From: Naegleria gruberi
Taxonomy: Eukaryota
Strand: one strand, 5' to 3'
Length of the DNA stretch: 64,000 nucleotides
Assembly (NCBI GenBank): GCA_000004985.1
Contig: GG738868.1
Shown here: positions 16,933 to 62,076 of the stretch, in pieces
How the letters are laid out: each line of letters begins with the position of its first letter
How positions within the stretch are numbered: the first letter of the stretch is position 1
Made by a program: the position numbers and the translations under genes
Notes under the pieces: model-generated
What the model was told of the DNA's origin: nothing
The model's database searches: none
The model's input: only the letters and a program-made list of their open reading frames with translations

Positions 16933-18796
16933 ATGAGTGAATTGAAACTTGTTGCCGATTTGACCAATGCAGGAAACGTAGTAAAGGAAGTGTGTATATC
17001 AACAACTCATGCAGAAGATTCCGTATGTCATATTTGGGATGTTCAAACAGGAAATATCATCAACACATTAAAAAGAACAAGAAATAATCGTGGCTGTATT
17101 AGTTTTATTCCCGAACATTTATGTTTAATATCTGCTCAATCGGATAAGAGTAGAATTTTCATTTACGATATCAGAAAGGAACAACCATTATATGAATGTC
17201 CAGTTGCTGAAAAAATCACTAGTTTAGCCACTTATGGAATTTGGTGTTTTGGTGGAGGTGAAAATGGTACTGTTTATGTTTGGAATATTCTTACAGGAAA
17301 ATTATTGAGAATTTTCAATGCTCACTTGAAGACAATTACCTGTATGGATGTAAATAATGATTTCCTTGTTACTGGATCTCTTGATACACTTATTCAAGTT
17401 TGGAATTTGGCAGAGTATGTTTGTTCTTTATCTTGTTGTTAATCATCATGTATTATTTTCATTATATTTACTTCTATTCCTCATATGAATGGTATTGAAT
17501 CAATAATTTAATTGTGAATGAATGAAATCATAGCTTATTGGATATTAGAAATGATGAAAGACAAGTCACTCCAATCTATTCTCTTTCAAGTCACTCATTG
17601 GCTGTTACAAGTGTTAAATTCTCATCATCTAGTCATACTAAATTAATTACCACAAGTTTGGATAGAACATGTAAAATTTGGGATATTTCATCAGGCATTG
17701 AAATTACTTCAATTGTTTACCCATCAAGTGTTTTGTGTGGAGTTTTATGTAAGAATGAACATGATTTATTTGTTGGTTGTTCCAATGGATGCATATATCA
17801 AATGAATCTCTATCCACATAAACCTCAATATTTGGATGAAAGTAATCAAGATATGTATGACGATGATGAATATGATCCATTATTGAGTGGAGCTAGAATG
17901 GTGGTCAGTGAATTGGGAGCCAGTTCAAGTGGAACAAAGAATCTTACATTGGAAAGTGATACATCGAGTGATGGTTCCTCAACAAGAGGTTCAAGATATA
18001 TGTGTTATACATTTAAGGCCCACAGGTAGGTTTTCAAATTCAATTTTGGTTGAATTATCATTTAATAATTAGTAATGCTGTTACAACTTTGGAATTAACT
18101 CAAGATGGATTAATTATTGTCAGTGGTTCTAAGGATGGTAAATTAATTACTTGGGATGTTAAATCAAGACAACCTCTTGTTACTTTCAAGAAGCATTCCA
18201 TTGCTGTTGATACTGAAATTTCCAACTCTGTAATTTCCACCATCAACATGACTCAATTCTCCTCATTCCACAATAATGAAAATGTCAAGCAACACTCAGA
18301 TCAACAACAAAAACAAGCCAGAAATACATCATCCCTCTCTATTAAGCCATTGAAAAAGTTTGTTGATACACAAGGTCTCTTATTAGAAGTCAACTCAACC
18401 AATGACACTTGGAATACTCTCTTTGCTGATTCTGATTTTGATTTGAAACTTTCACAACATTTCAACACTCCTGAAAGCTCACTTACTTCCTCATTGGTTC
18501 ATCAATCCCTCTCCAAGATTAAGTACAAACCAAAGACAGTCTCTAGAGGCATTCAAAAGAAGGAATCTTTAATGGTTAAGAAACTTGTTGCATTACAAAA
18601 GAGATTTGCTGAAACTGAACAATTGTACAATCAACAAAAGTCTATCAATGATGATCTCCTTGAAATTGTTGAAAAATATCAAATGAAGGAAGAACAAGAA
18701 GCTGCTGCTGCTGCTGCTGTTGAGGAAAAGAAAAAGACATCATCAGCCAAGAAGGCTTCTTCTGGTGGCGGTTTCTTCCATAGAAAATTCCAATAA
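16933..18796 (+). CDS. WDR18: WDR18/Ipi3-like WD40 protein, 3 exons
   Basis: Exons 16933-17414, 17534-18025, 18073-18796. Introns are 119 nt (GTATGT...ATAG) and 47 nt (GTAGGT...TTAG). Both junctions keep the frame and are collinear with WDR18: TVYVWNILTGKLLRIFNAHLKTITCMDVNNDFLVTGSLDTLIQVWNL, then D-LLDIRN.., then KAHR-S-NAVTTLELTQDGLIIVSGSKDGKLITWDV. C-terminal coiled coil with an Ala run. Confidence 0.6.
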
Positions 18797-20262: not shown

Positions 20263-22491
20263 CTATTTTCTATCCCAGCGCTTAAAACGAAGAGCCAGAT
20301 AAATGGCAATTCTCATAATAATGAGCATTCCAAAGAGAATTAGGACATTGCCCCAGATTGGAATGTGATTGCTACCTTCAAAATAATAATTGAGGGCATC
20401 TTCTCCAGATTTAAAACAAGTAGAGGAGGTAAGTGTGGCAACAGTTTGATTCCAATTCAATTCCGAACATAATTGCTCTGTATATGGCTCAATAGATATT
20501 TGAGAGCTTCCATTGATAGGGATTGAAGTTCCATTTCTGAATGAGCAAATATCAGTCATGTTAACGGTAGAGAGGATCTTATTAGTAGAAGAGCATTCAA
20601 AAGACATTCCACTCAATTCGGCTTGTGCCAAAGCATGAACTGAATATCTGAATAAACTGGTATATGAGAATGGATAAAACCATCCACCAATTTGAGTATT
20701 TCTAATAAGGAAACCGCTGAAGCTCCTAAAAGATGAAAATAGTTATTAATTTGCTTAGAAATTATTAAACTAAACTTACATCCAAATTGTAATGACAACA
20801 GAGAGAATCAAGTTGCCAACACCAACAGACTCACAAAGAGCTCCAATAAACAAACCAATTGATTCACTCAACCACTGAACAAGAATCATAATTGCACAAA
20901 AAATAAAAAAGTTGCCTGGATTGTTCTGAAAACCAACCAACCAATAGGCACAAATTAAGTTGACAATTGGGAAAATTGCTTCAACAGGAATGTGGACAAT
21001 AGTGTATGATGTGTAGTATGTGAGAGTGCTGTACAGATTCGATTCTCGTTCTCTTGTGAAGAGTAATCTCTGTTGAGGGAAGGTAGAAACAACAGATGTT
21101 GCAGGAACAATAGCAAAACAAGTAACAAGGAAAAATAAGGCAGAAATTCTATCTGTAATGCCCTGTTGATCTGCACTGAGCTTAAAGTAGAGAAGTCCAC
21201 AAAATAGTCCCAGAAATACTGCTTGAACAAGTTCAGAAAGGACCAACAAAGGATCTCTAAAGGTGGATCTCAGATTTCTATAGGTTAAAACGAGTAACTT
21301 TAGAAAACCTTCAATGAGGATGGATTGAATATTTCTTCTTTCATCAGAGTCTGTGAGAGGGTTATCCAACACACTACCAGTACTAGTTTGAGAGGAATTA
21401 TATTTGGATTTGTAAAATGAAGAGAGCAAATCAATCCTATTCTGAATGATTTCAAGTTGTTGTTCCATTGTCTTTTCTCCATCATTATCGATACAAATTT
21501 CAATACAAGATCCACTCTTTGCAACAACAGCTTCTGAAACAGAGGAGGTCATACTTTTTTCTTGTCTCAAATATGGATCCGAGACAATGGAAATAAGAAA
21601 ATCAGCTGGATTTGTGTCTTCTGGAATTGGATAATCAATCTTTTTCAAATAACTTTTAACCTGTGAAACTGGGCCACAGTAAACAAGTTTACCCTTGGCA
21701 AGAAGAATCACATTATCAAATATGCCAAATAACTCTGACGATGGTTGGTGAACGGTGGCTACAATTGTCTTGCCTTGCTCATGTGCCAATCTCTGCAACT
21801 TTTTTCCAATTTCTAAAGAAGTATACGAATCCAATCCTGAACTATATTCATCCAACAATAGTAAATCAGGATTGTTGATCAATTGAATAGAAAGAGAAGT
21901 TCTTTTTTTTTGACCTCCTGAAGCACCCTTCTTTTGTTCAGTACCAATTTTAACATTTCTATGAGGATATAATCCAATATCATTCTCAACCTGGAAGGTT
22001 CTTTCGCTACACATTTTCCAAATATCTGACAACTTGTTACCCTCCTTGTGTTTGTACTTTAACAGAGAAGATTCTAACAGGATTTCATGAATAGTGTCTG
22101 TGGATAATAAAATATCATCTTGATAGACATAGCCTCCTTGTTTGTGAAACAACTTTTTGGTTAGGGGTTGTCCTTTGAAAGTGATGGTTCCAGAACATCC
22201 CTTCCTTACACGTTTAGAAATAATGTCAAGCAAAGAGCTCTTTCCTCCTCCACTCCCCCCAATTATCATCGTTAATTGTCCAGAGGGAATGGTGCATGAA
22301 ATGTCAGACAGAATTTGTTTTTTCTTTCTTTTGAATCCAATATTCTCCAAAATCAAGGCTTGAGAAGCATTCGGCAATTCATGATGAAATTGCTGGGTTA
22401 AAAAAGCATCCTCCATTGACAATGTAGTACTAGTTGAAGATTCAGCAATTTGTAAAGCTTGTTGTGTTTGAAATTCGTTCATATTTGTCAT
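20263..22491 (-). CDS. ABC transporter, ABCG-type half-transporter (NBD-TMD), 2 exons
   Basis: Exons 22491-20770 and 20725-20263. The 44-nt intron runs GTAAGT...TTTTAG. Walker A GGSGGGKSS, signature SGGQKKRTSL, Walker B LLLLDE. Six TM segments after the NBD. The junction joins ...TIW-M-SFSGFLIRNTQIGGWFYPFSY.. in frame, a typical ABCG C-terminus. Confidence 0.8.
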
Positions 22492-31699: not shown

Positions 31700-33041
31700 T
31701 TAATAATCCTCGTCCGTCCTATTGTTCTCTACTCTTTGTGCACATCTTAGTTTGGCACTTCTACTCCTCACATTGAATTCAACTTCTGCATCATCAGGTA
31801 TGATTGTTCCTTTTGTAATCTTTTTAAAGGAATCTTGGTTCTCTTTCATGAAATCTTTTGTAATACGATCTTCTAATGAATGATAGCTCACCACAACCAA
31901 TCTTCCTGTTCCAATCTTTAAAATATCTTTGGATGCATAGAGAGCATTCTGTAAAGCACTCAACTCATCATTCACAAAAATTCTAATAGCTTGGAATGTC
32001 TTTGTGGCAGGGTGAATTCTCTTCTTTTTTCTTTCATGGAATGGTGTTATTTTTTCAATTAAATTTGCCAATTCAAGGGTGGTCTCAAAAGGTTTTACAT
32101 TATTTCTATAATCTACGATAGCTTTAGCAATACGATATGCCTTGTCATCCTCTCCAAATTTTGTAATCATTATTCTCAAATCGAGTTCACTCATATTATT
32201 CACTACATCTCTAGCTGTTGGACATTCATCATCCAATGGGTTCATTCTCATATCTTGAATTAAGGTTTTAGTTAGAATCAACATATCAAAACATACCAAG
32301 TGGACCTTCTCTAAGGAAGGAGAAACCTCGATGCCCTTGATCCAATTGCATTGAAGAAACTCCCAAATCAAACACTATTCCATCAATCACATTACTTGTA
32401 TCTGATTTTAATTGTGGCACTATTTTTTCCTGAACCACTTTCTTAATTTCTCTAAAATTGACACAATGCACTTCCAATCTCTCCTTTCCAAATTCTTCAT
32501 GTATCAACTTTTCATTCTCCTTAATGGTAGGATTATTGTAATAATCAGTATCAATTCCAATAACTTTACATCCTGGATAAGCTCTCAAAATCTCTCTCGT
32601 GTATCCACCAGCTCCAAAAGTTGCATCAATGAATAGCTTTTTCCCTCCACTGCTACTACTACTTGCACTACGGTTAGTGATCATCTTTTTAGAATGCTTT
32701 GATTTATCCAAATTCTTTCCCTCCAGAAGAGCACAACACTGCCTAACCAATACAGGCACATGGCTCTTATAATTAGAATCATCACTTTTATAATTTTCCA
32801 AAATATTATTATTATTATTTGTATCATTATTAGTATTTCCATTAAATTCCAATGAGTCTTCGGAAGAATTTACTGATTTTATCTTCTTGTTCATTAACTT
32901 CTTAGAATAGGAACAATAATTTACAGCAGGAGACTTTCGGATCATCATTAAAGAAAATGATGCCACCACCGAACAATAATAATTTAAAACTCCCTTCCTA
33001 GCACCCTCGCCACCAATCATCATCATCGTTGATGAAAACAT
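31700..33041 (-). CDS. 16S/12S rRNA (cytosine-N4)-methyltransferase RsmH/MraW family (METTL15-like, probably mitochondrial), 2 exons
   Basis: Exons 33041-32297 and 32253-31700. The 43-nt intron is GTATGT...TCTAACT...CAAG. The junction reproduces the conserved GFSFLREGPL-DMRMNP. Other RsmH motifs: IDATFGAGGYT, FDLGVSSMQLD, HPATKTFQAIRIFVNDEL, VVSYHSLEDRITK. N-terminus resembles a presequence. Confidence 0.8.
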
Positions 33042-44995: not shown

Positions 44996-47890
44996 ATGAA
45001 GAATTTCTTTAGAAAGAGTACTCGTTTGTCGAGTAATGAACAATCAAATAATAATAATAATCAGAATACTTCTCCAGTTTCCTTGTCGAAAGGAGATTCG
45101 AGTAAGGATCTCACAGCAATAGCCTCAACCTTGAGTTTACCAAGAGAGGCTACAACATCAAATACGAGTGGTGTATTGTCACCATCTTCTAATTCATCAT
45201 CATCGGCAGCATCCTCCTCATACTCCTTCTTGCTTCCTACTGCAGAAAATTTAACTAGAGAACCTCCTTGTGGACTTGAATTATTTGAATATAATAATGG
45301 TGATATTTATGATGGTGAAGTTAATCAGAAGGGATTACGTCACGGATCGGGAACATGTAAATTTTCAGACAGTGCAGAAAGAGAGTTTCCTCCATCGTTA
45401 AGTTTTATTTCGCAACCTGGTCTTTCATCATTCACAGGAAAGTGGTTTTGTGGACAACCTTGTATTGGTATGTGTTGTTATTGTGATTTTATGTGAAAAT
45501 AACATTGATCAATTTGTGAAGATATTCAAGCCGTAATTCAATACGTAAATGGTGATAGATATTGTGGTGCTGTTATGGGATTTACGGAAGAACTTTTAGA
45601 AGAAGCATCAATTTTGTCAGAATATTATTATTCAAATTATACACCGTCTTCATCATCTAACAGTAGCTCTCTCAAAACCCCAAGATCATCAGTTTCATCT
45701 ACTTCTCCTTCCAACAATTCTCCAAGTGCTCCACCAAAGAAGAAAAAGAATCCATTCTCATTCTCCAGTTCAAGTGAAAATAATAATGATTCCCTCTTTG
45801 GAAAACCAGCTTCTTCATCTGATGAGGGTCTTCCTTATATTATGAAACATGGTGAAGGTGAATTGCACTACCTAGATGGCTCAAAATATAATGGAAGTTT
45901 CAGAAGAGATGTTCGTGAAGGATTTGGAGTAATGATCGACACTAAAAATGGAACTGAATATTATGGAAATTGGAAAGATAATGAAAAGGAAGGATTTGGT
46001 ACCATGATTTTCAATGATGGTACTATCTATGAAGGTGATTGGAGAGGAGGAAAGCAAGGACCAAAAGGAGTTCTCAGATTACCAAACGGTGACAGAATTG
46101 TTGGAGAATGGGATGGAAACAATATTAAGAAAGCCATTTTTGAAAAGGGGTCTATTCAAAATGTAAAGAGCAAGTGTCCAACTATGCTCCTTAGAGAAGA
46201 AGTCAAGAAATCTGAAAAGAATGACAGAACTACCTCATTTTCACACGTCACTACTCCAATCCTTGCCAAAGAAGACCTCGTTACTCCAAGGAAATGGGAC
46301 GGTCTCTTCTCTATATTTGCCAATAGTATTGAAATAGAGAAGGAAAAATATGCAAATGGTGTCACTGCTAAATGCATTGAAGAAAAGAAAACTCAAGATG
46401 GAAGCATTTCACCAATTTCCAGAAAATCAATCCAAGATGCCCTTCAGAATTATCTGGACGATTCTATGGCTCGCAAATTATCGAAAATTACAATTGATAA
46501 TGTGACTCAAATTTCACATGGAGATGAGGCCCCTATTTTTGGCGTTCTCTCTACAGCCACCAACGATCACGTTCTCTCAAGAATTATCGCCAAGTTTGTT
46601 AACCTTTTCAATTGGAAATATCACCAAAGTGATATCAAATCGACAGCTGCTGCCAAACATCACATTCCTCATGCATTGGATGACTTCGTAAGTAATTTAT
46701 TAATACTATTTTCCTGAACTAACCATTGTAGCATTCATTTGTTATCTATATTTTTGAAAAAACCTGTCACATCATTGGTAACGACTCTGTGGCTGTATTT
46801 GGTCACAAGAAACTTCTATACCATCTTAAAGATCACATACTGAGCAGAATTTACAGTACTCTTTTTACAATTTACAAATTCTGTGTAAGTTTTTAATTTC
46901 ATTTTGCTTATTACAATACTGTATCAGTATCACGAACAAGATAACATGTATAAATTCAAAATGCTTGCCCTTTCATCCATCTCAATGAGAGAACTTGGTG
47001 TAAAGGATGGATTTATTCCAACTGATGAAATGGGACTTTTTGAACCATACCAAGATTGTATCAAAAAGTTGAGAACTCTATCAACCAAATTCACAACAGC
47101 CCATGAAAAGTTTGAAATTCTCGTTGAGGTTGGTAAAGAACTCGTGACAGCTATTGATTTCATTGAGGAAAAGAAGAGAGGTAAAATATCTGATAGAGGT
47201 GCTGATGACATGTTACCAGCTTATTTGTACATTTTCATTCAAGCTCAAATACCGAATGTATATAGTACCTTCAAATTCCTTTTAGATTTTATGGATGAAA
47301 AAGTTCAAACTACTGAACAGGGTTATAGATTTTCTGTCTTTGAAAATGCAATTCAATACATTCCAATGATTGACTCATCTATTAGAGATACAAATGGAAT
47401 ACTTGTACCAACATTCGTTTTGGAAGACAGATTAGAAAGTTGTCTCAATAAGATTAAGAAGGAAGCCAGAGAACACGGAGAAGCACCAAGGTTATTGTGG
47501 ATTAGCTCAATTTTCATAGTTGTAGGAAGCACCTTGTCTGAAATTTCTCAAAGCTCAACAACATATCAATCCAATAATCCAACTCCAGTTATTCCTGTCC
47601 TTCATACACAACACCGCGACTTGTTGAGAAGATATTCCAAGTATGCTGAAAAGATACTCAAATGTGTCTCATTAAGCTTGGAAAGTACTGATATTGATAG
47701 TAGTGAAATCAAACAACAATACTCACCAAAAGAAGAATTTGAGGAAGATTGGACGCCACTTCAAAAGAAGAAGGCTGAAGAGCCTGTAATAGTGACAAAG
47801 AACTTTAATATTACTGTAGATCAAATTTATCCAAGCTACATTTATTTCAAGATGGCCAGAAAACTGGAAGAACTGATAGAAGAGCACTAA
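44996..47890 (+). CDS. MORN-repeat / VPS9-domain Rab5-GEF (alsin-like C-terminal architecture), 4 exons
   Basis: Exons 44996-45467, 45531-46687, 46732-46884, 46928-47890. Introns of 63, 44 (with CTAAC) and 43 nt. Several MORN repeats (YDGEVNQKGLRHGSG, YNGSFRRDVREGFG, YYGNWKDNEKEGFG, YEGDWRGGKQGPKG). VPS9 motif DDMLPAYLYIFIQAQIPNVYSTFKFLLDFMD. Confidence 0.7.
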
Positions 47891-57003: not shown

Positions 57004-58977
57004 ATGGTTTCAGCATCAACAACGAGAGCAAAAAATCGATTGTTAAGAGACTTGAAGGAGATTGAGAATAATCCATTAGAAACTGTGTATGCCCAACCTT
57101 TGCCAAACGATATATTTCATTGGTATGCAACAGTGTTGGCTCCAAAGGAATCTCGTTACCATGGAATTATATTGAATTTGAGTATTGTTTTCCCAGAAAC
57201 GTATCCGAAAGATCCACCCAAGGTTGTTTGCTCGACTCGTATTCACCACCATCATGTCTTTCCAACTTGGATCTGTTTGGACATGTTGAGAACTCACTTT
57301 TCATCAGAGCCTTACAGTGGATGGAGTTCCAGTTATTCTTGTTTGTCCATCTTGTTGCAGTTGCAATCCTTCTTATTGGAGGAGGAAGAACAGCAAAAAG
57401 ATTACATTAAGGAAGATATTGCATCATCAAGAGACTATTCTAATCTCAAAATAGGACATAATCCGAGTAAGGGAAATATTTGGCCACGAGCACCACATTG
57501 GAATGTGGATGAAATTATCAAATCAGAATATGATCCCTCTTTACAAACTAAAAAAAAGGATGAAACTCAATATGAGAAGGGTGTTGTTGACATGGATTTG
57601 GAAGAATTTATTGAGAAGGAGACGAAGCAAGCGAGCTCTGTAATGTCAAAGAAGAAGAGAAAAAAGATGAACCGATTACAAAGATCCAAAAAGGAGGAAA
57701 ATGATGAGAATGTCCCTTCAAGCAGTACATCTACTATTACTCACCAAGCACCTGTTCAATTAAACAAGATTGAAAAGATGAAGGACCTTCCAAATGAAAC
57801 ATTGATTCATATTTTGAGTTATCTATCTCTCATTGACTTGAAGAGAGTGAGCAACTCTTCCAATTTTATGAAACTCTTGTGTGAAAACAAGAGTTTGACA
57901 ACTGAAAGAGAATTGATTTGTTTCCACTCCAAAGTAACCTACAAAGAAGATATTCTTGGAGTTGGATTAACATTTGAAACAAAGGATGGTGGGGTGGTTG
58001 CCTCCATTTCTACTCCATTAGATTTGGTATCAAAAAGTGCATTCTTTGATGAAAGTGTCAGAAAGAGTGTTTGGGGTGTTTTGACTCAACAATGGATTCC
58101 AATATATATTAATAAGGAACATGGAAACTTTGAGGCTCTAAAACAAGCCGTCAAGAGTATTGCCAAGTCATATCCATCACTATCTCAATCCAATAAGTTT
58201 GACAGTCCAGAAATCTATATTGATCTATTGTGTAAATTGATGAATACCATGGTGGTTGAGATTATGAAAGGTCAAACCCATGCCTCAATCAAGGCCCTGT
58301 ATGGATATATGTACTTTCACCGATGGCTGATTTACTTGGTTCAAAAGTTCCCATCTGCTCTCAAAGATATTGAGGAACAAGTCAAATCCTTTGTTACCAA
58401 TGAGAATTCACGTAAAAAGTCAAATTGTCCAAACATTGGCGAATTCCTTCCAAAACTTTCAGTTTTGGGTCCATCTGGTTTAACTTGGGATTATGTTAAA
58501 TCATCTGTTGTTGAGGAAACCTCTATTAGAAATCAACTTTGGGTCATCAAGCAGTTCCCTTCTCTATCTTCCACTAATGATAGTTCAGATGATTTCAGAT
58601 GCACCAATTCGTGGGTGGCAAACAATGTCTCTTGTAAGCTAATTATGTTCCATGTATTCTTCTTGAGAAATGTTGTAGAATCTTATACTGACCTTTCTCT
58701 TGAAGAATTTGGAAGATTGTACGATAATAACTTTGGTTGCCCACCAAAGACAAAGAATGGTGATTTTTTGGAAGATGTTCTTCAAAGGGAGGTATTCACA
58801 ATTCAAAATGTGTCATGTTTCCAACAATATTTCGAATACGTCGGTTTACCAAATATGAAAACAAGAACATCTGTTGCTCAATATTTGAGAAATTGTGTTA
58901 CCATTAGTGAAAAGAGAAGATATCATAATAATTTCAAAAATGGAAACAAGAACAACTTTTACAAAAATAAAAAGTAG
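57004..58977 (+). CDS. UBC (E2) core with HPN replaced by HHH, fused to F-box-like motif and ~350-aa C-terminal domain
   Basis: N-terminal UBC fold RLLRDLKEIENNP...IFHWYATVLAPKESRYHGIILNLSIVFPETYPKDPPKVVCSTRIHHHHVFPTWICLDML with the active-site Cys present. Acidic linker and basic NLS-like KKKRKKMNRLQRSKK. F-box-like LPNETLIHILSYLSLIDLKRVSNSSNFMKLL. Uncharacterised C-terminal region. Single 657-aa exon. Confidence 0.65.
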   Translation: MVSASTTRAKNRLLRDLKEIENNPLETVYAQPLPNDIFHWYATVLAPKESRYHGIILNLSIVFPETYPKDPPKVVCSTRIHHHHVFPTWICLDMLRTHFSSEPYSGWSSSYSCLSILLQLQSFLLEEEEQQKDYIKEDIASSRDYSNLKIGHNPSKGNIWPRAPHWNVDEIIKSEYDPSLQTKKKDETQYEKGVVDMDLEEFIEKETKQASSVMSKKKRKKMNRLQRSKKEENDENVPSSSTSTITHQAPVQLNKIEKMKDLPNETLIHILSYLSLIDLKRVSNSSNFMKLLCENKSLTTERELICFHSKVTYKEDILGVGLTFETKDGGVVASISTPLDLVSKSAFFDESVRKSVWGVLTQQWIPIYINKEHGNFEALKQAVKSIAKSYPSLSQSNKFDSPEIYIDLLCKLMNTMVVEIMKGQTHASIKALYGYMYFHRWLIYLVQKFPSALKDIEEQVKSFVTNENSRKKSNCPNIGEFLPKLSVLGPSGLTWDYVKSSVVEETSIRNQLWVIKQFPSLSSTNDSSDDFRCTNSWVANNVSCKLIMFHVFFLRNVVESYTDLSLEEFGRLYDNNFGCPPKTKNGDFLEDVLQREVFTIQNVSCFQQYFEYVGLPNMKTRTSVAQYLRNCVTISEKRRYHNNFKNGNKNNFYKNKK

Positions 58978-59178
58978 TTTTCCTCAATCAACTTAATCAG
59001 CTCTAAAGATTATACTGTTTAAGACTAGAGGAGCAAAGTTATGAAAATGGTGAGGGACAAAACCAAGTTGAAAGTCTTTGAAACAAGAGGAAATTTGACC
59101 TTAAACAAGAAAAGGAACCTCACTTTGTGTTGATGTTCTTTAAGCAAGCTTCCCAGTGTATATTATATTCGGAATTCT

Positions 59179-59712
59179 GTGAAGAAAAGAATAATTGAAT
59201 GGGAGGAAGGCGAGTTATTGTGTTATTTGAGAAAAAGAAAATTAATATTTAATTTTAATAGAGTCACACATTTACATGGTTTGAATGAAAAAGCTAACAG
59301 ATTCAGAAAAATAATGAATGAAAATGGCAAATCATACAAATTCATTTCTGGGTCTAGTGATTACGATAGATATGAAGAAGTAGAGAAAATGAGAGAAGAC
59401 ATCTATCGTAAAATCATCAATGCAGGGTTTGAGCCAGACACAAGATGGGTCACTAATTCGAAACTAATGACAGAAGAAGAAAAAATAGCTTCTCTACACA
59501 AGCATGCAGAAAAAACAGCCATAGCTCATGCCTTTGTTTTAAATCCAAACAGAAAGAAAATATTACTAACCATAAATCTACGAGTTTGCAATGATTGTCA
59601 TAACGCTGCTACGTATATTTCCAAAGAGATGAATGTTGAAATTATTGTAAGAGATGCAAATAGATACCATCATTTTGTTAATGGTAAATGTAGTTGTGGA
59701 AATTATTGGTAA
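59179..59712 (+). CDS. Stand-alone DYW-type cytidine deaminase (plant-like E2/PG-box plus DYW, no PPR array)
   Basis: C-terminal 100 aa match the plant PPR-editing-factor consensus: AGFEPDT, EEEK, HAEKTAIA (HxE zinc/catalytic motif), NLRVCNDCH (CxxCH), EIIVRDANRYHHF, GKCSCGNYW at the C-terminus. N-terminus KKRIIEWEEG resembles the PG box. No in-frame ATG before the conserved region; see findings. Confidence 0.8.
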   Translation: MKKRIIEWEEGELLCYLRKRKLIFNFNRVTHLHGLNEKANRFRKIMNENGKSYKFISGSSDYDRYEEVEKMREDIYRKIINAGFEPDTRWVTNSKLMTEEEKIASLHKHAEKTAIAHAFVLNPNRKKILLTINLRVCNDCHNAATYISKEMNVEIIVRDANRYHHFVNGKCSCGNYW

Positions 59713-59813
59713 CACAACCCCCATGATACCTCAGCATGATATTACTCCTTGAACATCTAATAATACTAATATTTCTAATAATTACAAATTTTATTAAGGT
59801 TTATTTGGGAAAA

Positions 59814-60752
59814 TTACAAACTACCAATAAGTGTTCCTAAAGCAAAACAAACCGCTGCACATACAGAAGTAATTGCCAATTCATGATTGATATCATCGTA
59901 TAATCGCCTTTCATTTGGTGAAATCAATGTTTCACATTTGAAAACTCTTCTTTCTGGATCAACCTTTCCAATAAGTATAACCTGATCATCCTTATTCAAA
60001 ACTTTTTGAATAATTTGTGCATCAAACAATGCAAACAGCTTTATAATGGGTTGGAATTTAATATTGCTGTCTCGATTCATTCTCATTACTGTTTCAATAT
60101 GACCGTTATAGTCTCTAATATTTTCAGAGTATTCTTTGGTTGGTCCCATGACTATTTTGCAATTGGGTAAGAGTTCAACCTTTAAACTTTCAGTTAAATC
60201 ATTATTAGAATCGAACCATTCTTTAGATGGAATGCCAAAAGCAAATTTCACCTCCAGATCACTACTATAACATCTCAATCGCTCTCTTCTCCTGCTTTTA
60301 ACAAACAAGATCTTTCCACTATCTTTTGAGATTTCATAAATCAAAACTGGTTCTTGACTTTCGATTGAATCATCCAATTTCAGCACCTTGTTTGAATTAA
60401 TCTTTCCAACATTTTTACACAATTTACCATCTGTTAAATTTCCTTCCTCAATAATGTTCGAATGTTCAAGTTGATCATATTGAGTATAATACAATGATCC
60501 GTCAAGTACACACAGAGCCAATCCCATTAATATTAAAATAATTCTAGCTTGTGAAGATGAGGATTTTCTTTTTTCCTCATCATTTTGATTGTTATTTGGA
60601 TTATTATTTACAATTGTTGAATAATGTAGCAATTGTTGTTGATGTGTGAAAATTGTCTTGTTTAATCTATTACGAATGCAGTATGAATCCAATAACCATG
60701 GTTGTCTATTGCTCATCATTATGGAGGGTGATAAATTCTTACTGGTTTGCAA
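59814..60752 (-). CDS. Hypothetical membrane protein (N-proximal and C-terminal hydrophobic segments)
   Basis: 312-aa ORF. Asn-rich N-terminus, TM-like ARIILILMGLALCVL and C-terminal AITSVCAAVCFALGTLIGSL. Confidence 0.35.
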   Translation of the reverse strand: MQTSKNLSPSIMMSNRQPWLLDSYCIRNRLNKTIFTHQQQLLHYSTIVNNNPNNNQNDEEKRKSSSSQARIILILMGLALCVLDGSLYYTQYDQLEHSNIIEEGNLTDGKLCKNVGKINSNKVLKLDDSIESQEPVLIYEISKDSGKILFVKSRRRERLRCYSSDLEVKFAFGIPSKEWFDSNNDLTESLKVELLPNCKIVMGPTKEYSENIRDYNGHIETVMRMNRDSNIKFQPIIKLFALFDAQIIQKVLNKDDQVILIGKVDPERRVFKCETLISPNERRLYDDINHELAITSVCAAVCFALGTLIGSL

Positions 60753-61203: not shown

Positions 61204-62076
61204 TTATGTTCCAAATGGTATTGTAGCAAATATATTCCCTGAATTTCTCTCATAAATCATTGCAAACATGTTATAAGAGGTGTAATTTCCAACATAATCC
61301 GAAAGAGTCATATAGTGTAAAGAAGTCCATTCCTGTTTCTCGCTCTGTTGAAAAACCTCCAACTTATTGGAACAATGACAGCAAATGAATTGATTTTTGG
61401 AAGTAACCTCAAAAGCAGAACTGTTTCGAAGTATTAGGGGAGTTTCAACTTTCACTATTTGACCATCTCTACATCTGATCTGTCTCAGTGTTTCAACATC
61501 AATTTTCTTGGAGGTCAGCAAGACCAGTTCTCCATTCAAATCACATGTGGCCATTCCATACGTTGCACAATCTAATTCTGTTTTCCATAATGAATTAGAT
61601 AATTTACCTCCCATTAACAATGAGTGCAAATTAAACTTCATCAACATTCCCTTAGCATCTTCCTCATCTATCCAAACCATCAAGAAGAACGCATCCTCTC
61701 GATCATTCACAACTGAATTCATATATTCAAATTCTAATTCTACTCTATTAATTAATTGCTTTGTTTTCCGATCCAAAACATAAATCAATCTCTCTGTACA
61801 AGCCAATATACAATCTAATCGGTACGATATTTTCAAATCACAGGAAACATCCATATCATTCACATTCCATGTTTTGTATTCAATAATTTGAATAGGCTTT
61901 CTGAGGCCATTATTCAGAGAAAAACTCTTAATTTTTCTTAAAGTTAATTTATTCTTCAACCAAGTCATCAACAATTGTTCATTCCCTCGTTGATTCATCG
62001 GAACATCTTCATCGCGCTGATTTATTGTCATATTAAAATCAATAAGGGTAACTGTAACAATCTCCTCATCACACAT
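61204..62076 (-). CDS. Hypothetical 290-aa protein
   Basis: Uninterrupted ORF with normal composition. No recognised motifs. Confidence 0.35.
   Translation of the reverse strand: MCDEEIVTVTLIDFNMTINQRDEDVPMNQRGNEQLLMTWLKNKLTLRKIKSFSLNNGLRKPIQIIEYKTWNVNDMDVSCDLKISYRLDCILACTERLIYVLDRKTKQLINRVELEFEYMNSVVNDREDAFFLMVWIDEEDAKGMLMKFNLHSLLMGGKLSNSLWKTELDCATYGMATCDLNGELVLLTSKKIDVETLRQIRCRDGQIVKVETPLILRNSSAFEVTSKNQFICCHCSNKLEVFQQSEKQEWTSLHYMTLSDYVGNYTSYNMFAMIYERNSGNIFATIPFGT

What the first reader, a model, noticed from the sequence alone, without database searches (positions are those of the whole stretch)
59041..59712. Stand-alone plant-type DYW cytidine deaminase gene outside plants, with an anomalous 5' end
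The ORF encodes only the E2/PG-box plus DYW module of plant organellar C-to-U editing factors. The zinc-binding HxE (HAEK) and CxxCH (CNDCH) motifs and the terminal NYW are intact, so it is probably an active deaminase, yet there is no PPR tract. Such proteins are characteristic of land-plant editing machinery and are only sporadic elsewhere. A stand-alone copy implies a trans-acting deaminase working with separate RNA-binding partners, a possible editing system. The conserved region has no in-frame ATG. A 30-codon ATG-initiated ORF (59041-59130, MKMVRDKTKLKVFETRGNLTLNKKRNLTLC) sits in the same frame, separated by a single TGA (59131-59133). A 30-nt GT...AG interval (59127-59156), length divisible by 3, would splice the TGA out, but it is shorter than any intron verified in this window.
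Basis: partly seen in the sequence, partly recalled or inferred. Interest (0 to 1): 0.75.

Follow-up and report, generated by a model that had tools for sequence, protein, structure and literature searches.

The report
Truncated Naegleria DYW deaminase gene copy
This is an already annotated gene of the amoeba Naegleria gruberi, a cut-down copy of one of its known plant-like RNA-editing factor genes that keeps only the enzyme part, and whether it still does anything is unproven.

Summary
The ORF is real. Frame 59134-59709 matches Pfam DYW_deaminase over the whole model (E 2.3e-33), and every zinc and catalytic residue is intact.

The window is Naegleria gruberi nuclear DNA. The gene is already annotated as NAEGRDRAFT_33704 (XP_002677116, 132 aa), starting at ATG 59314. 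N. gruberi has been known since 2010 to carry 10-11 DYW-type PPR genes and mitochondrial C-to-U editing.

Its closest relative is an 822-aa N. gruberi PPR-DYW paralogue, NAEGRDRAFT_45424 (70% identity). Homology starts inside the E2 motif at 59275. An in-frame 14-codon deletion removes the first half of the PG box. There is no PPR tract, no E1 motif and no presequence-like N-terminus.

The "anomalous 5' end" mostly dissolves:
- An in-frame ATG does exist, at a conserved E2 methionine.
- The 30-nt "intron" has a donor (GTGTTG) unlike the GTAWGTTT donors of three introns verified in this window (43-119 nt).
- No SECIS element was found.

The evidence on function is mixed. The ORF is open and its substitution rate is not raised (16 vs 10, not significant). 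Several conserved positions have changed, and no orthologue or transcript evidence is available.

Best reading: a lineage-specific truncated paralogue. It may be a DYW1-like trans-acting deaminase or simply a remnant. Interest is modest.

The parts
59314..59712 (+). Annotated CDS NAEGRDRAFT_33704 / XP_002677116 (132 aa plus TAA). It encodes the DYW deaminase core with a half-deleted PG box.
   Evidence: 100% identical to P0001, 'predicted protein [Naegleria gruberi]'. Translation.
59425..59709 (+). Full-length Pfam DYW_deaminase (PF14432) match.
   Evidence: E 2.3e-33, model positions 1-93 of 93. PDB sequence hits 9kfx, 7o4e and 7w86. AF2 pLDDT above 90 across this stretch.
59503..59514 (+). 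HAEK: the catalytic His and Glu of the HxE zinc/deaminase motif.
   Evidence: H124 is near-invariant and E126 invariant in the 43-sequence alignment. The S-to-A change at the middle position is shared with paralogue P0004 and with P0002.
59587..59601 (+). CNDCH: the CxxC zinc ligands followed by His.
   Evidence: C152, D154, C155 and H156 are invariant.
59668..59709 (+). HHF...CSCGNYW: residues of the second (structural) zinc site and the terminal DYW-like tripeptide.
   Evidence: H179, C186 and C188 are invariant. The NYW ending is also found in P0002 and P0003.
59275..59313 (+). In-frame remnant of the second half of the E2 motif (HGLNEKANRFRKI). It lies upstream of the annotated ATG.
   Evidence: HGLNEKAN is identical to P0004 residues 660-667. 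The ATG at 59314 falls in a column that is Met in 81% of 150 homologues.
59316..59320 (+). Site of a 42-nt in-frame deletion relative to the paralogue. It removes RKRGIKKLPGIVYH, which is the end of E2 plus the first half of the PG box.
   Evidence: The conserved PG-box K and G columns are gaps in the window sequence.
59370..59371 (+). Site of a 12-nt in-frame length difference from P0004.
   Evidence: In the multi-paralogue alignment only P0004 has these four residues, so this is more likely an insertion in P0004 than a deletion here.
59246..59275 (+). Probable frameshifted relic of the first half of E2 (YLILIESHIY in the +1 frame against P0004 YILLSHIY). It is preceded by TAA at 59243-59245.
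   Evidence: alignment. Targeted permutation test p = 0.001-0.04, chosen post hoc. Not significant in the broader test.
59134..59274 (+). Open main-frame extension of 47 codons. It has no ATG and no significant similarity to PPR or E motifs.
   Evidence: Chance of 47 open codons is about 0.054. Codon-usage score 2.7 against 10 +/- 5 for real coding sequence.
59131..59133 (+). In-frame TGA that closes the upstream mini-ORF.
   Evidence: No SECIS element or other Rfam family within 58800-60300.
59041..59130 (+). ATG-initiated 30-codon upstream ORF. It probably lies in the intergenic region or 5' leader and is not part of the protein.
   Evidence: Chance of 30 open codons is about 0.16. Codon-usage score -1.7 against 6.2 +/- 3.7 for coding sequence.
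59127..59156 (+). Rejected.
   Evidence: Its donor is GTGTTGAT. Three introns verified in this window have GTAWGTTT donors and lengths of 43, 54 and 119 nt. No GTRDGW donor exists between 58612 and 59646.
57004..58977 (+). Upstream neighbour gene, a UBC (E2) + F-box protein. It limits how far the DYW gene can extend upstream.
59814..60752 (-). Convergent downstream neighbour ORF (312 aa, no Pfam hit).

Best explanation
The locus is NAEGRDRAFT_33704 of Naegleria gruberi. It is a lineage-specific, 5'-truncated paralogue of the organism's own PPR-DYW mitochondrial editing-factor family, closest to the 822-aa NAEGRDRAFT_45424.

Shown:
- Only the zinc-dependent DYW cytidine-deaminase core survives, and it is fully intact.
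- The PPR tract and the E1 motif are gone.
- E2 is broken: its last 14 residues remain in frame, and its first half is probably frameshifted.
- An in-frame deletion has removed the first half of the PG box.
- The only usable start is an internal conserved Met codon of E2 (59314). The resulting 132-aa product has an acidic N-terminus that does not look like a presequence.

Inferred: such a product cannot choose an RNA site by itself. By analogy with PG-box-less plant DYW proteins, it probably cannot complete its substrate pocket alone either. The most likely status is therefore a gene remnant left by partial duplication or truncation. It is not an autonomous editing enzyme, and it is either idle or only recently disabled. 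Any activity would require a partner that supplies RNA recognition and the E2/PG-box surface.
For: - Identity and annotation.
- Closest relative is a full-length N. gruberi paralogue, with 62-70% identity by different alignments. Homology starts at 59275 and there are two in-frame gaps.
- PG-box K and G columns are missing.
- No PPR or E similarity upstream. A probable frameshifted E2 relic lies behind a stop codon.
- The upstream gene ends at 58977.
- Changes specific to this copy at otherwise conserved columns: H to Y, K to I, T to A, D to S.
- The N-terminus has 4 basic and 6 acidic residues in its first 25 aa, against 6 and 0 in the full-length paralogue P0006.
- No short stand-alone counterpart was found among proteins up to about twice the query length, and only hits of 38-53% identity were found in metagenomes.
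- Literature: only two editing sites are known against 10-11 DYW genes (PMC4202320). PG box/E2 complementation is needed for the truncated DYW1 (PMC11897456; PMC13041630).
Against: - The 132-codon ORF has no stop or frameshift. The one deletion attributable to this copy (42 nt) is in frame. The 12-nt difference from P0004 looks like a P0004 insertion.
- All nine invariant columns are kept, and so are all near-invariant columns except S125, whose Ala is shared with P0004.
- The branch leading to this copy is not significantly longer than that of the full-length paralogue: 16 vs 10 substitutions, chi-square 1.4.
- Codon usage of the DYW part is typical of coding sequence.
- The gating region and the predicted fold are complete.

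These points fit continued purifying selection. However, the neutral simulation gives P(no stop) of 0.2-0.35 at 10-16% divergence, so a recent truncation is not excluded.
Confidence: 0.5

Rival explanations
1. DYW1-like trans-acting deaminase. The 132-aa protein is expressed and supplies catalysis in trans to a Naegleria PLS-class PPR protein, which provides RNA recognition plus the E2/PG-box surface. This would be a split editing enzyme evolved independently of the Arabidopsis CRR4-DYW1 pair.
For: - Intact catalytic and structural zinc sites.
- Open frame, in-frame deletions and no raised substitution rate.
- The AF2 model superposes best on the PG-box-less DYW1 domain 7w86 (TM 0.86 normalised to the target, rmsd 1.6 A). 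OTP86 gives 0.72-0.75.
- Plant precedent for complementation in trans (PMC11897456; PMC13041630).
Against: - No partner is known. I could not enumerate N. gruberi PPR-E proteins that lack a DYW domain. The E-region search returned no Naegleria protein, but it only sees proteins up to about twice the query length.
- The N-terminus does not look like a mitochondrial presequence.
- Only two editing sites are known, while about 10 complete PPR-DYW proteins already exist.
- Unlike DYW1, the gating region is complete and half of the PG box remains.
- No orthologue was found elsewhere.
Confidence: 0.28
2. The real protein is longer. Translation starts at ATG 59041 (or 59047) and the TGA at 59131 is bypassed. 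This would happen by splicing or by read-through or selenocysteine insertion. The result would be a basic, presequence-like N-terminus.
For: - The main frame is open for 60 codons upstream of ATG 59314 (chance about 0.024) and the 30-codon ORF is in the same frame.
- The upstream peptide is basic, with 9 K/R and 2 D/E in its first 25 aa.
Against: - Thirteen of the 60 codons are explained as an E2 remnant. The remaining 47 are open at p about 0.05 and the 30-codon ORF at p about 0.16.
- Codon usage of both upstream stretches is below that of typical coding sequence.
- The candidate donors GTGTTG and GTGAGG differ from the GTAWGTTT donors of three verified introns, and 30 nt is shorter than the shortest of them (43 nt).
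- No SECIS element was found.
- The ancestral frame just upstream appears to be a different one and is closed by a stop.
- The public gene model starts at 59314.
Confidence: 0.07
3. A deaminase put to another use. Freed from its PPR tract and presequence, the domain would act outside mitochondria on other nucleic-acid targets, as stand-alone DYW-like and other deaminase toxins or mutators do.
For: - The catalytic core is intact and there is no targeting peptide.
- Distant fold similarity to a stand-alone bacterial T6S cytidine-deaminase toxin (7jtu/9c63, TM 0.43-0.45).
- Fu et al. suggest that the excess DYW proteins in Heterolobosea may have other, even cytoplasmic, roles (PMC4202320).
Against: There is no positive evidence at all. 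The sequence is a close paralogue of an ordinary PPR-DYW factor, with no new domain or motif. An untargeted cytidine deaminase would be hazardous to the cell.
Confidence: 0.1
4. Annotation or assembly artefact. The PPR tract would exist but be encoded elsewhere (missed exons or a mis-join), so the gene would really be a normal PPR-DYW factor.
For: None directly. Gene callers did split the metagenomic homologues P0002 and P0003 from their PPR tracts.
Against: - A 657-aa UBC + F-box ORF on the same strand fills 57004-58977.
- tblastn with DYW homologues (P0002/P0003) over the whole 64-kb window, and with full-length P0004 over 58001-59800, finds no PPR or E sequence.
- No usable splice donor lies upstream.
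Confidence: 0.03

Closest known systems
Naegleria gruberi PPR-DYW protein NAEGRDRAFT_45424 (XP_002682650, 822 aa) and the rest of the N. gruberi DYW-type PPR family (Knoop & Rudinger 2010, as cited in PMC4202320)
   Same: Same organism. The DYW region is 62-70% identical overall and 78% from PDTRWVT onward, with runs such as HAEKTAIAHAFVLNPNRKK fully identical. It has the same HAEK variant and shares the E2 signature HGLNEKAN.
   Different: The window copy lacks the whole PLS-type PPR tract, E1, the first half of E2 and the first half of the PG box. It also lacks four residues that P0004 carries as a likely insertion of its own. It is 132 aa rather than 822 aa.
Arabidopsis DYW1 (At1g47580; PDB 7w86), partner of the PPR-E+ protein CRR4
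   Same: [quoted passage not shown] It is the best structural match to the AF2 model (TM 0.86, rmsd 1.6 A) (PMC11897456, PMC13041630).
   Different: Independent origin: the nearest relative here is a Naegleria paralogue, not DYW1. Only half of the PG box is lost and the gating region is complete. No partner, targeting peptide or expression is known.
Atypical short plant PPR-DYW proteins that act in trans (DYW2, MEF8/MEF8S, PCW1)
   Same: The DYW deaminase is supplied separately from the site-recognition factor (PMC11897456).
   Different: Those proteins keep a few PPR motifs and organelle targeting. This one has neither.
Canonical DYW domain structures (OTP86 7o4e/7o4f; synthetic PPR-DYW 9kfx)
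   Same: Sequence E-values of 1e-26 to 1e-28. The alignment runs from OTP86 residue 10 to the C-terminus, and all zinc ligands correspond.
   Different: The segment before OTP86 residue 10 (the start of the PG box) has no counterpart. The model shows no beta-hairpin at KSYKF.

Membership tests
DYW-type cytidine deaminase domain (Pfam PF14432) | Significant full-length match to the family profile | tested here: met
   E 2.3e-33, 114 bits (cut-off 24), model positions 1-93 of 93.
DYW-type cytidine deaminase domain (Pfam PF14432) | HxE and CxxC(H) catalytic zinc signature | tested here: met
   HAEK and CNDCH fall in invariant or near-invariant columns.
DYW-type cytidine deaminase domain (Pfam PF14432) | Second zinc site (His residues plus C-terminal CxC) and a DYW-like C-terminus | tested here: met
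   H156, H179, C186 and C188 are invariant. The terminus is NYW.
DYW-type cytidine deaminase domain (Pfam PF14432) | PG box at the start of the 136-aa domain | tested here: not met
   A 14-residue deletion removes KKLPGIVYH, and the conserved K and G columns are gaps. Only ENGKSYKF remains.
DYW-type cytidine deaminase domain (Pfam PF14432) | Deaminase fold | tested here: met
   AF2 pLDDT is above 90 for residues 71-190. Foldseek hits 7w86, 7o4e/f and 9kfx at E 1e-6 to 1e-11. This is a prediction only.
DYW-type cytidine deaminase domain (Pfam PF14432) | C-to-U deaminase activity | not testable with these tools
   Needs a biochemical assay or an E. coli editing assay.
PLS-class PPR-DYW RNA editing factor | Tract of P/L/S pentatricopeptide repeats | tested here: not met
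   No PPR Pfam hit. No PPR-like sequence at the locus or upstream of it, and no second DYW-like sequence anywhere in the window.
PLS-class PPR-DYW RNA editing factor | E1 and E2 motifs between the PPR tract and the DYW domain | tested here: not met
   Only the last 14 residues of E2 are in frame. The E-motif HMM finds nothing significant. Pfam E_motif does not hit.
PLS-class PPR-DYW RNA editing factor | N-terminal organelle targeting sequence | tested here: inconclusive
   The first 25 aa have 4 basic and 6 acidic residues, which is unlike a presequence. No dedicated predictor was available.
DYW1-type trans-acting truncated DYW protein | [quoted passage not shown] | tested here: met
   The truncation is milder than in DYW1.
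DYW1-type trans-acting truncated DYW protein | A partner PPR-E/E+ protein that carries E2 and the PG box but lacks the deaminase | tested here: inconclusive
   The E-region profile search returned no Naegleria protein, but the tool only lists proteins up to about twice the query length.
DYW1-type trans-acting truncated DYW protein | Common descent with plant DYW1 | tested here: not met
   The closest relative is the N. gruberi paralogue P0004 (68% identity). The other listed hits are 32-50% identical. By sequence, DYW1 (7w86) is a weaker PDB match than 9kfx or 7o4e.
Pseudogene / gene fragment | Loss of parts that are essential in the parent family | tested here: met
   PPR tract, E1, half of E2, half of the PG box and the presequence are all absent.
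Pseudogene / gene fragment | Disabling mutations or a raised substitution rate in the retained part | tested here: not met
   No stop or frameshift in 132 codons. Relative rate 16 vs 10, not significant. The power is low: neutral P(no stop) is 0.04-0.35.
Pseudogene / gene fragment | No expression | not testable with these tools
   No transcript data were reachable.

The most novel reading that the evidence does not exclude
Naegleria has independently evolved a split DYW editing enzyme. In this reading, a PPR-less deaminase subunit with a defective PG box (this gene) is completed in trans by the E2/PG-box surface of a separate PPR protein. That would be a protist convergence on the Arabidopsis CRR4-DYW1 arrangement. 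It might also help explain why DYW genes outnumber known editing sites in Heterolobosea.
Probability: 0.2. Interest if true: 0.6.

Novelty: new member of a known kind. Interest (0 to 1): 0.3.

Why it matters
If the copy is functional, it would be the first trans-acting, PPR-less DYW deaminase outside land plants. It would show that splitting recognition from catalysis arose more than once, and it would offer a very small (132 aa) natural DYW core for RNA-editing engineering.

If it is a remnant, it simply documents ongoing birth-and-death turnover in the lineage-specific Naegleria DYW family. The closest paralogue also shows recent internal repeat duplication.

Either way, the presence of DYW deaminases and C-to-U editing in N. 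gruberi is already established. The finding therefore does not open a new system.

Tried and rejected
Rejected. The true PG-box position is fixed by alignment to P0004, P0002 and OTP86, and it lies at or after 59314. The upstream stretch has no significant similarity.
- **30-nt intron, and my own 99-nt alternative (59050-59148).** Rejected on donor sequence and on length, compared with three introns I verified in the window by uninterrupted Pfam alignments across the splice: ABC2_membrane, WD40 and MraW.
- **Selenocysteine or a structured read-through element.** Rfam found nothing at E <= 1.
- **Relic of E1 or PPR motifs upstream.** The HMM search and the broad permutation tests were not significant. 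Only a 10-residue frameshifted E2 piece is supported, and that test was chosen post hoc.
- **DNA of paralogue NAEGRDRAFT_45424 for dN/dS.** Not on record.
- **Orthologues.** The metagenome scan gave only hits of 38-53% identity. Searches for short proteins gave none from Naegleria or Willaertia except the gene itself.
- **Enumerating N. gruberi PPR-E proteins without DYW.** The search tool lists only proteins up to about twice the query length, so the result is uninformative.
- **Primary papers.** Knoop & Rudinger 2010, Rudinger et al. 2011 and Schallenberg-Rudinger et al. 2013 are not held. No held paper cites this accession. I therefore could not check whether the '11th' N. gruberi DYW protein counted in PMC4202320 is this gene.
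- **Bacterial promoter/terminator scan.** Irrelevant for a eukaryote and uninformative.
Full report
**What is in the sequence**

The frame that starts at 59041 reads a 30-codon ATG-initiated ORF, then TGA at 59131-59133, then 192 open codons ending ...CSCGNYW and TAA at 59710-59712. The 192-residue stretch matches Pfam DYW_deaminase (PF14432) over the complete model, positions 1-93 of 93. The match covers residues 98-192 (59425-59709), with E 2.3e-33 and 114 bits against a 24-bit cut-off. No PPR or E-motif family hits it.

Against solved structures it matches a synthetic PPR-DYW protein (9kfx, 1.7e-28), the OTP86 DYW domain (7o4e/7o4f, 1.4e-26) and DYW1 (7w86, 5.9e-22). In alignments with 150 and with 43 homologues it keeps every invariant residue: E126, C152, D154, C155, H156, D174, H179, C186 and C188, numbered in the 192-residue frame. 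It also keeps all near-invariant residues except S125, which is Ala here; the closest paralogue has the same change.

**Where it comes from**

The 132-residue translation from ATG 59314 is 100% identical to 'predicted protein [Naegleria gruberi]': XP_002677116.1 / EFC44372.1 / NAEGRDRAFT_33704 / UniProt D2VFJ2, on a 427,589-bp scaffold. The window's 30-36% G+C and its short introns fit that genome.

N. gruberi was the first organism outside land plants reported to encode DYW-type PPR proteins. PMC4202320 counts 11, citing Knoop & Rudinger 2010. Two mitochondrial C-to-U editing sites have been verified there, citing Rudinger et al. 2011 (also PMC3239186 and PMC4758236). "A plant-type DYW deaminase outside plants" is thus established knowledge for this species, and the gene is already in public databases. 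I found no held paper that mentions this accession, and the primary papers were not available.

**Anatomy relative to its relatives**

An exhaustive HMMER search of 1.84 billion representatives found 1,873 relatives. The best hit apart from the gene itself is P0004 (2.1e-57, 68% identity). P0004 is N. gruberi NAEGRDRAFT_45424, an 822-aa PPR-E1-E2-DYW protein on another scaffold. The other N. gruberi members P0006, P0007 and P0009 and the Willaertia magna proteins P0008 and P0011 are 41-48% identical.

tblastn and pairwise alignment show the following:
- Homology begins at 59275 with HGLNEKAN, which is identical in P0004 and belongs to the second half of the E2 motif.
- The annotated ATG 59314 sits in a column that is Met in 81% of homologues. 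The start codon is therefore an inherited internal E2 methionine.
- Immediately after it, 14 residues present in P0004 (RKRGIKKLPGIVYH) are missing. This is the end of E2 plus the first half of the PG box. The conserved PG-box Lys and Gly columns are gaps in this copy.
- A four-residue length difference follows DYDR. In the multi-paralogue alignment only P0004 has those residues, so it is more likely a P0004 insertion.
- Both gaps are multiples of three.
- From PDTRWVT onward the copy is 78% identical to P0004, with long identical runs. The N-terminal part is 55% identical.

Upstream of 59275, neither an E-motif HMM built from about 100 homologues nor local alignments to four paralogues give significant similarity in any frame. 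The one exception is a 10-residue stretch in the +1 frame (59246-59275, YLILIESHIY against P0004 YILLSHIY), directly abutting the homology boundary and preceded by TAA at 59243-59245. A targeted dinucleotide-shuffle test gives p = 0.001-0.04, but I chose that test after seeing the match.

No PPR-like sequence lies at or upstream of the locus, and no second DYW-like sequence lies anywhere in the 64-kb window. The same-strand UBC + F-box gene ends at 58977.

The locus is therefore the 3' end of a PPR-DYW gene of the NAEGRDRAFT_45424 lineage. It is cut off within E2 and probably carries a frameshift at the break.

**The "anomalous 5' end"**

The claim that the conserved region has no in-frame ATG is wrong. 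ATG 59314 precedes the whole Pfam domain and is the public start.

What remains is that the frame is open for 60 codons upstream of that ATG. Using the window's own stop-codon frequency, 60 open codons have a chance of about 0.024. Thirteen of them are the E2 remnant, however. The other 47 have a chance of about 0.054, and the 30-codon upstream ORF about 0.16.

A codon-usage model trained on 23 long ORFs of the window gave these scores:

| Stretch | Score | Expected for coding sequence |
|---|---|---|
| DYW part (59314-59709) | 22.8 | 30 +/- 11 |
| 47-codon extension (59134-59274) | 2.7 | 10 +/- 5 |
| Upstream 30-codon ORF (59041-59130) | -1.7 | 6.2 +/- 3.7 |

I verified three introns in the window by showing that a single Pfam alignment runs uninterrupted across each splice:

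| Intron | Strand | Length | Donor ... acceptor | Domain spanning the splice |
|---|---|---|---|---|
| 32254-32296 | - | 43 nt | GTATGTTT...AAG | MraW methylase |
| 20726-20779 | - | 54 nt | GTAAGTTT...TAG | ABC2_membrane |
| 17415-17533 | + | 119 nt | GTATGTTT...TAG | WD40 |

My own 99-nt alternative (59050-59148) has GTGAGGGA. No GTRDGW donor exists on the + strand between 58612 and 59646. Rfam finds no SECIS element or anything else in 58800-60300.

The splicing and read-through ideas are therefore unsupported, though only transcript data can exclude them.

One real oddity remains. The 132-aa product has an acidic N-terminus (4 basic and 6 acidic residues in the first 25). The full-length paralogue P0006 starts with a typical basic presequence (6 basic, 0 acidic).

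**Is it alive?**

For continued constraint:
- There is no stop or frameshift in 132 codons.
- The deletion attributable to this copy is in frame.
- All catalytic and zinc residues are kept.
- Codon usage is normal.
- A relative-rate count polarised with eight outgroups puts 16 substitutions on this branch and 10 on the P0004 branch (chi-square 1.4, not significant). Long neutral evolution should have made this branch several-fold longer.

Against, or neutral:
- A neutral simulation gives P(no stop) of 0.35, 0.20 and 0.04 at 10%, 16% and 32-38% amino-acid divergence. A recently truncated copy would still look intact.
- The E2 relic, if real, is no more diverged than the coding part, which also points to a recent break.
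- Changes on this copy's branch hit columns that are otherwise nearly fixed: H to Y in the SHP motif, K to I in KNLRVC (Lys in 93% of homologues), T to A, and D to S.
- No stand-alone counterpart was found in other Naegleria or in Willaertia among short proteins, nor any close relative in metagenomes.

No expression data could be reached.

**Structure**

AlphaFold2 on the 192-residue frame with a 43-sequence alignment gives mean pLDDT 83.5, with values above 90 for residues 71-190. The upstream 60 residues are low-confidence helices (pLDDT 48-74), probably driven by the E motifs of the aligned homologues. No beta-hairpin forms at the residual PG-box half.

Foldseek against the PDB gave these matches:

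| Target | Description | TM (normalised to target) | rmsd |
|---|---|---|---|
| 7w86 | PG-box-less DYW1 domain | 0.86 | 1.6 A |
| 7o4e / 7o4f | OTP86 DYW domain | 0.72-0.75 | 4-5 A |
| 7jtu / 9c63 | Bacterial T6S cytidine-deaminase toxin | 0.43-0.45 | about 6.5 A |

**Comparison with what is known**

[quoted passage not shown] Its substrate pocket is completed by the E2 and PG box of CRR4. DYW2, MEF8 and PCW1 likewise supply deaminase activity in trans (PMC11897456; PMC13041630).

The Naegleria copy resembles DYW1 in architecture and in predicted fold. It differs in these respects:
- It is of independent origin, because its nearest relative is a Naegleria paralogue.
- It keeps the complete gating region and half of the PG box.
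- It has no known partner.

I could not test for a CRR4-like partner. The word-indexed protein search lists only proteins up to about twice the query length.

**Verdict**

It is an annotated, truncated member of the known N. gruberi DYW family.

| Reading | Probability |
|---|---|
| Remnant of a partial duplication or truncation that cannot act autonomously | about 0.5 |
| DYW1-like trans-acting deaminase | about 0.28 |
| Deaminase put to a non-editing use | about 0.1 |
| Longer spliced or read-through product | about 0.07 |
| Annotation or assembly artefact | about 0.03 |

Novelty: a new member of a known kind. Interest: 0.3.

Noticed in passing
window 57004-58977 (+): A 657-aa ORF combines a ubiquitin-conjugating (UQ_con) domain (aa 12-140, E 9e-21) with an F-box (aa 260-298). 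An E2 enzyme fused to an F-box is an unusual pairing. About 360 C-terminal residues have no Pfam hit.
   Followed up: no
P0004 (NAEGRDRAFT_45424, not in the window): The closest paralogue carries four nearly identical repeats of about 104 aa at its N-terminus (…TTFTILLSACANSNMYEEGVKIHELAKQTLK…). This indicates very recent internal tandem duplication of PPR units. The model also appears to lack a presequence.
   Followed up: no
window 32254-32296 (-), 20726-20779 (-), 17415-17533 (+): Three short spliceosomal introns (43, 54 and 119 nt) with GTAWGTTT donors. Each was verified by an uninterrupted Pfam alignment across the splice: MraW methylase, ABC2_membrane and a WD40 propeller. Further likely introns are at 45468-45521 (+) and 18026-18072 (+).
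   Followed up: partly
L001-L004 (metagenome contigs, JGI 3300002220 and ENA ERZ27315067): Two PPR-DYW genes from an unidentified eukaryote end in CSCGNYW, as the Naegleria copy does, and are 52-55% identical to it. The gene caller split the DYW ends (P0002, P0003) from the PPR tracts that lie directly upstream.
   Followed up: partly
window 58975-59133 (+): The UBC/F-box gene, the 30-codon upstream ORF and the DYW ORF all lie in the same reading frame, separated by four stops (TAG, TAA, TAG, TGA). This is probably coincidence, with about a 1 in 9 chance.
   Followed up: partly
window 61204-62076 (-): A 290-aa ORF has only a weak, sub-threshold Arf-family similarity (E 0.0018, 18 bits against a 22-bit cut-off). 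The convergent neighbour ORF at 59814-60752 (-) has no Pfam hit at all.
   Followed up: no
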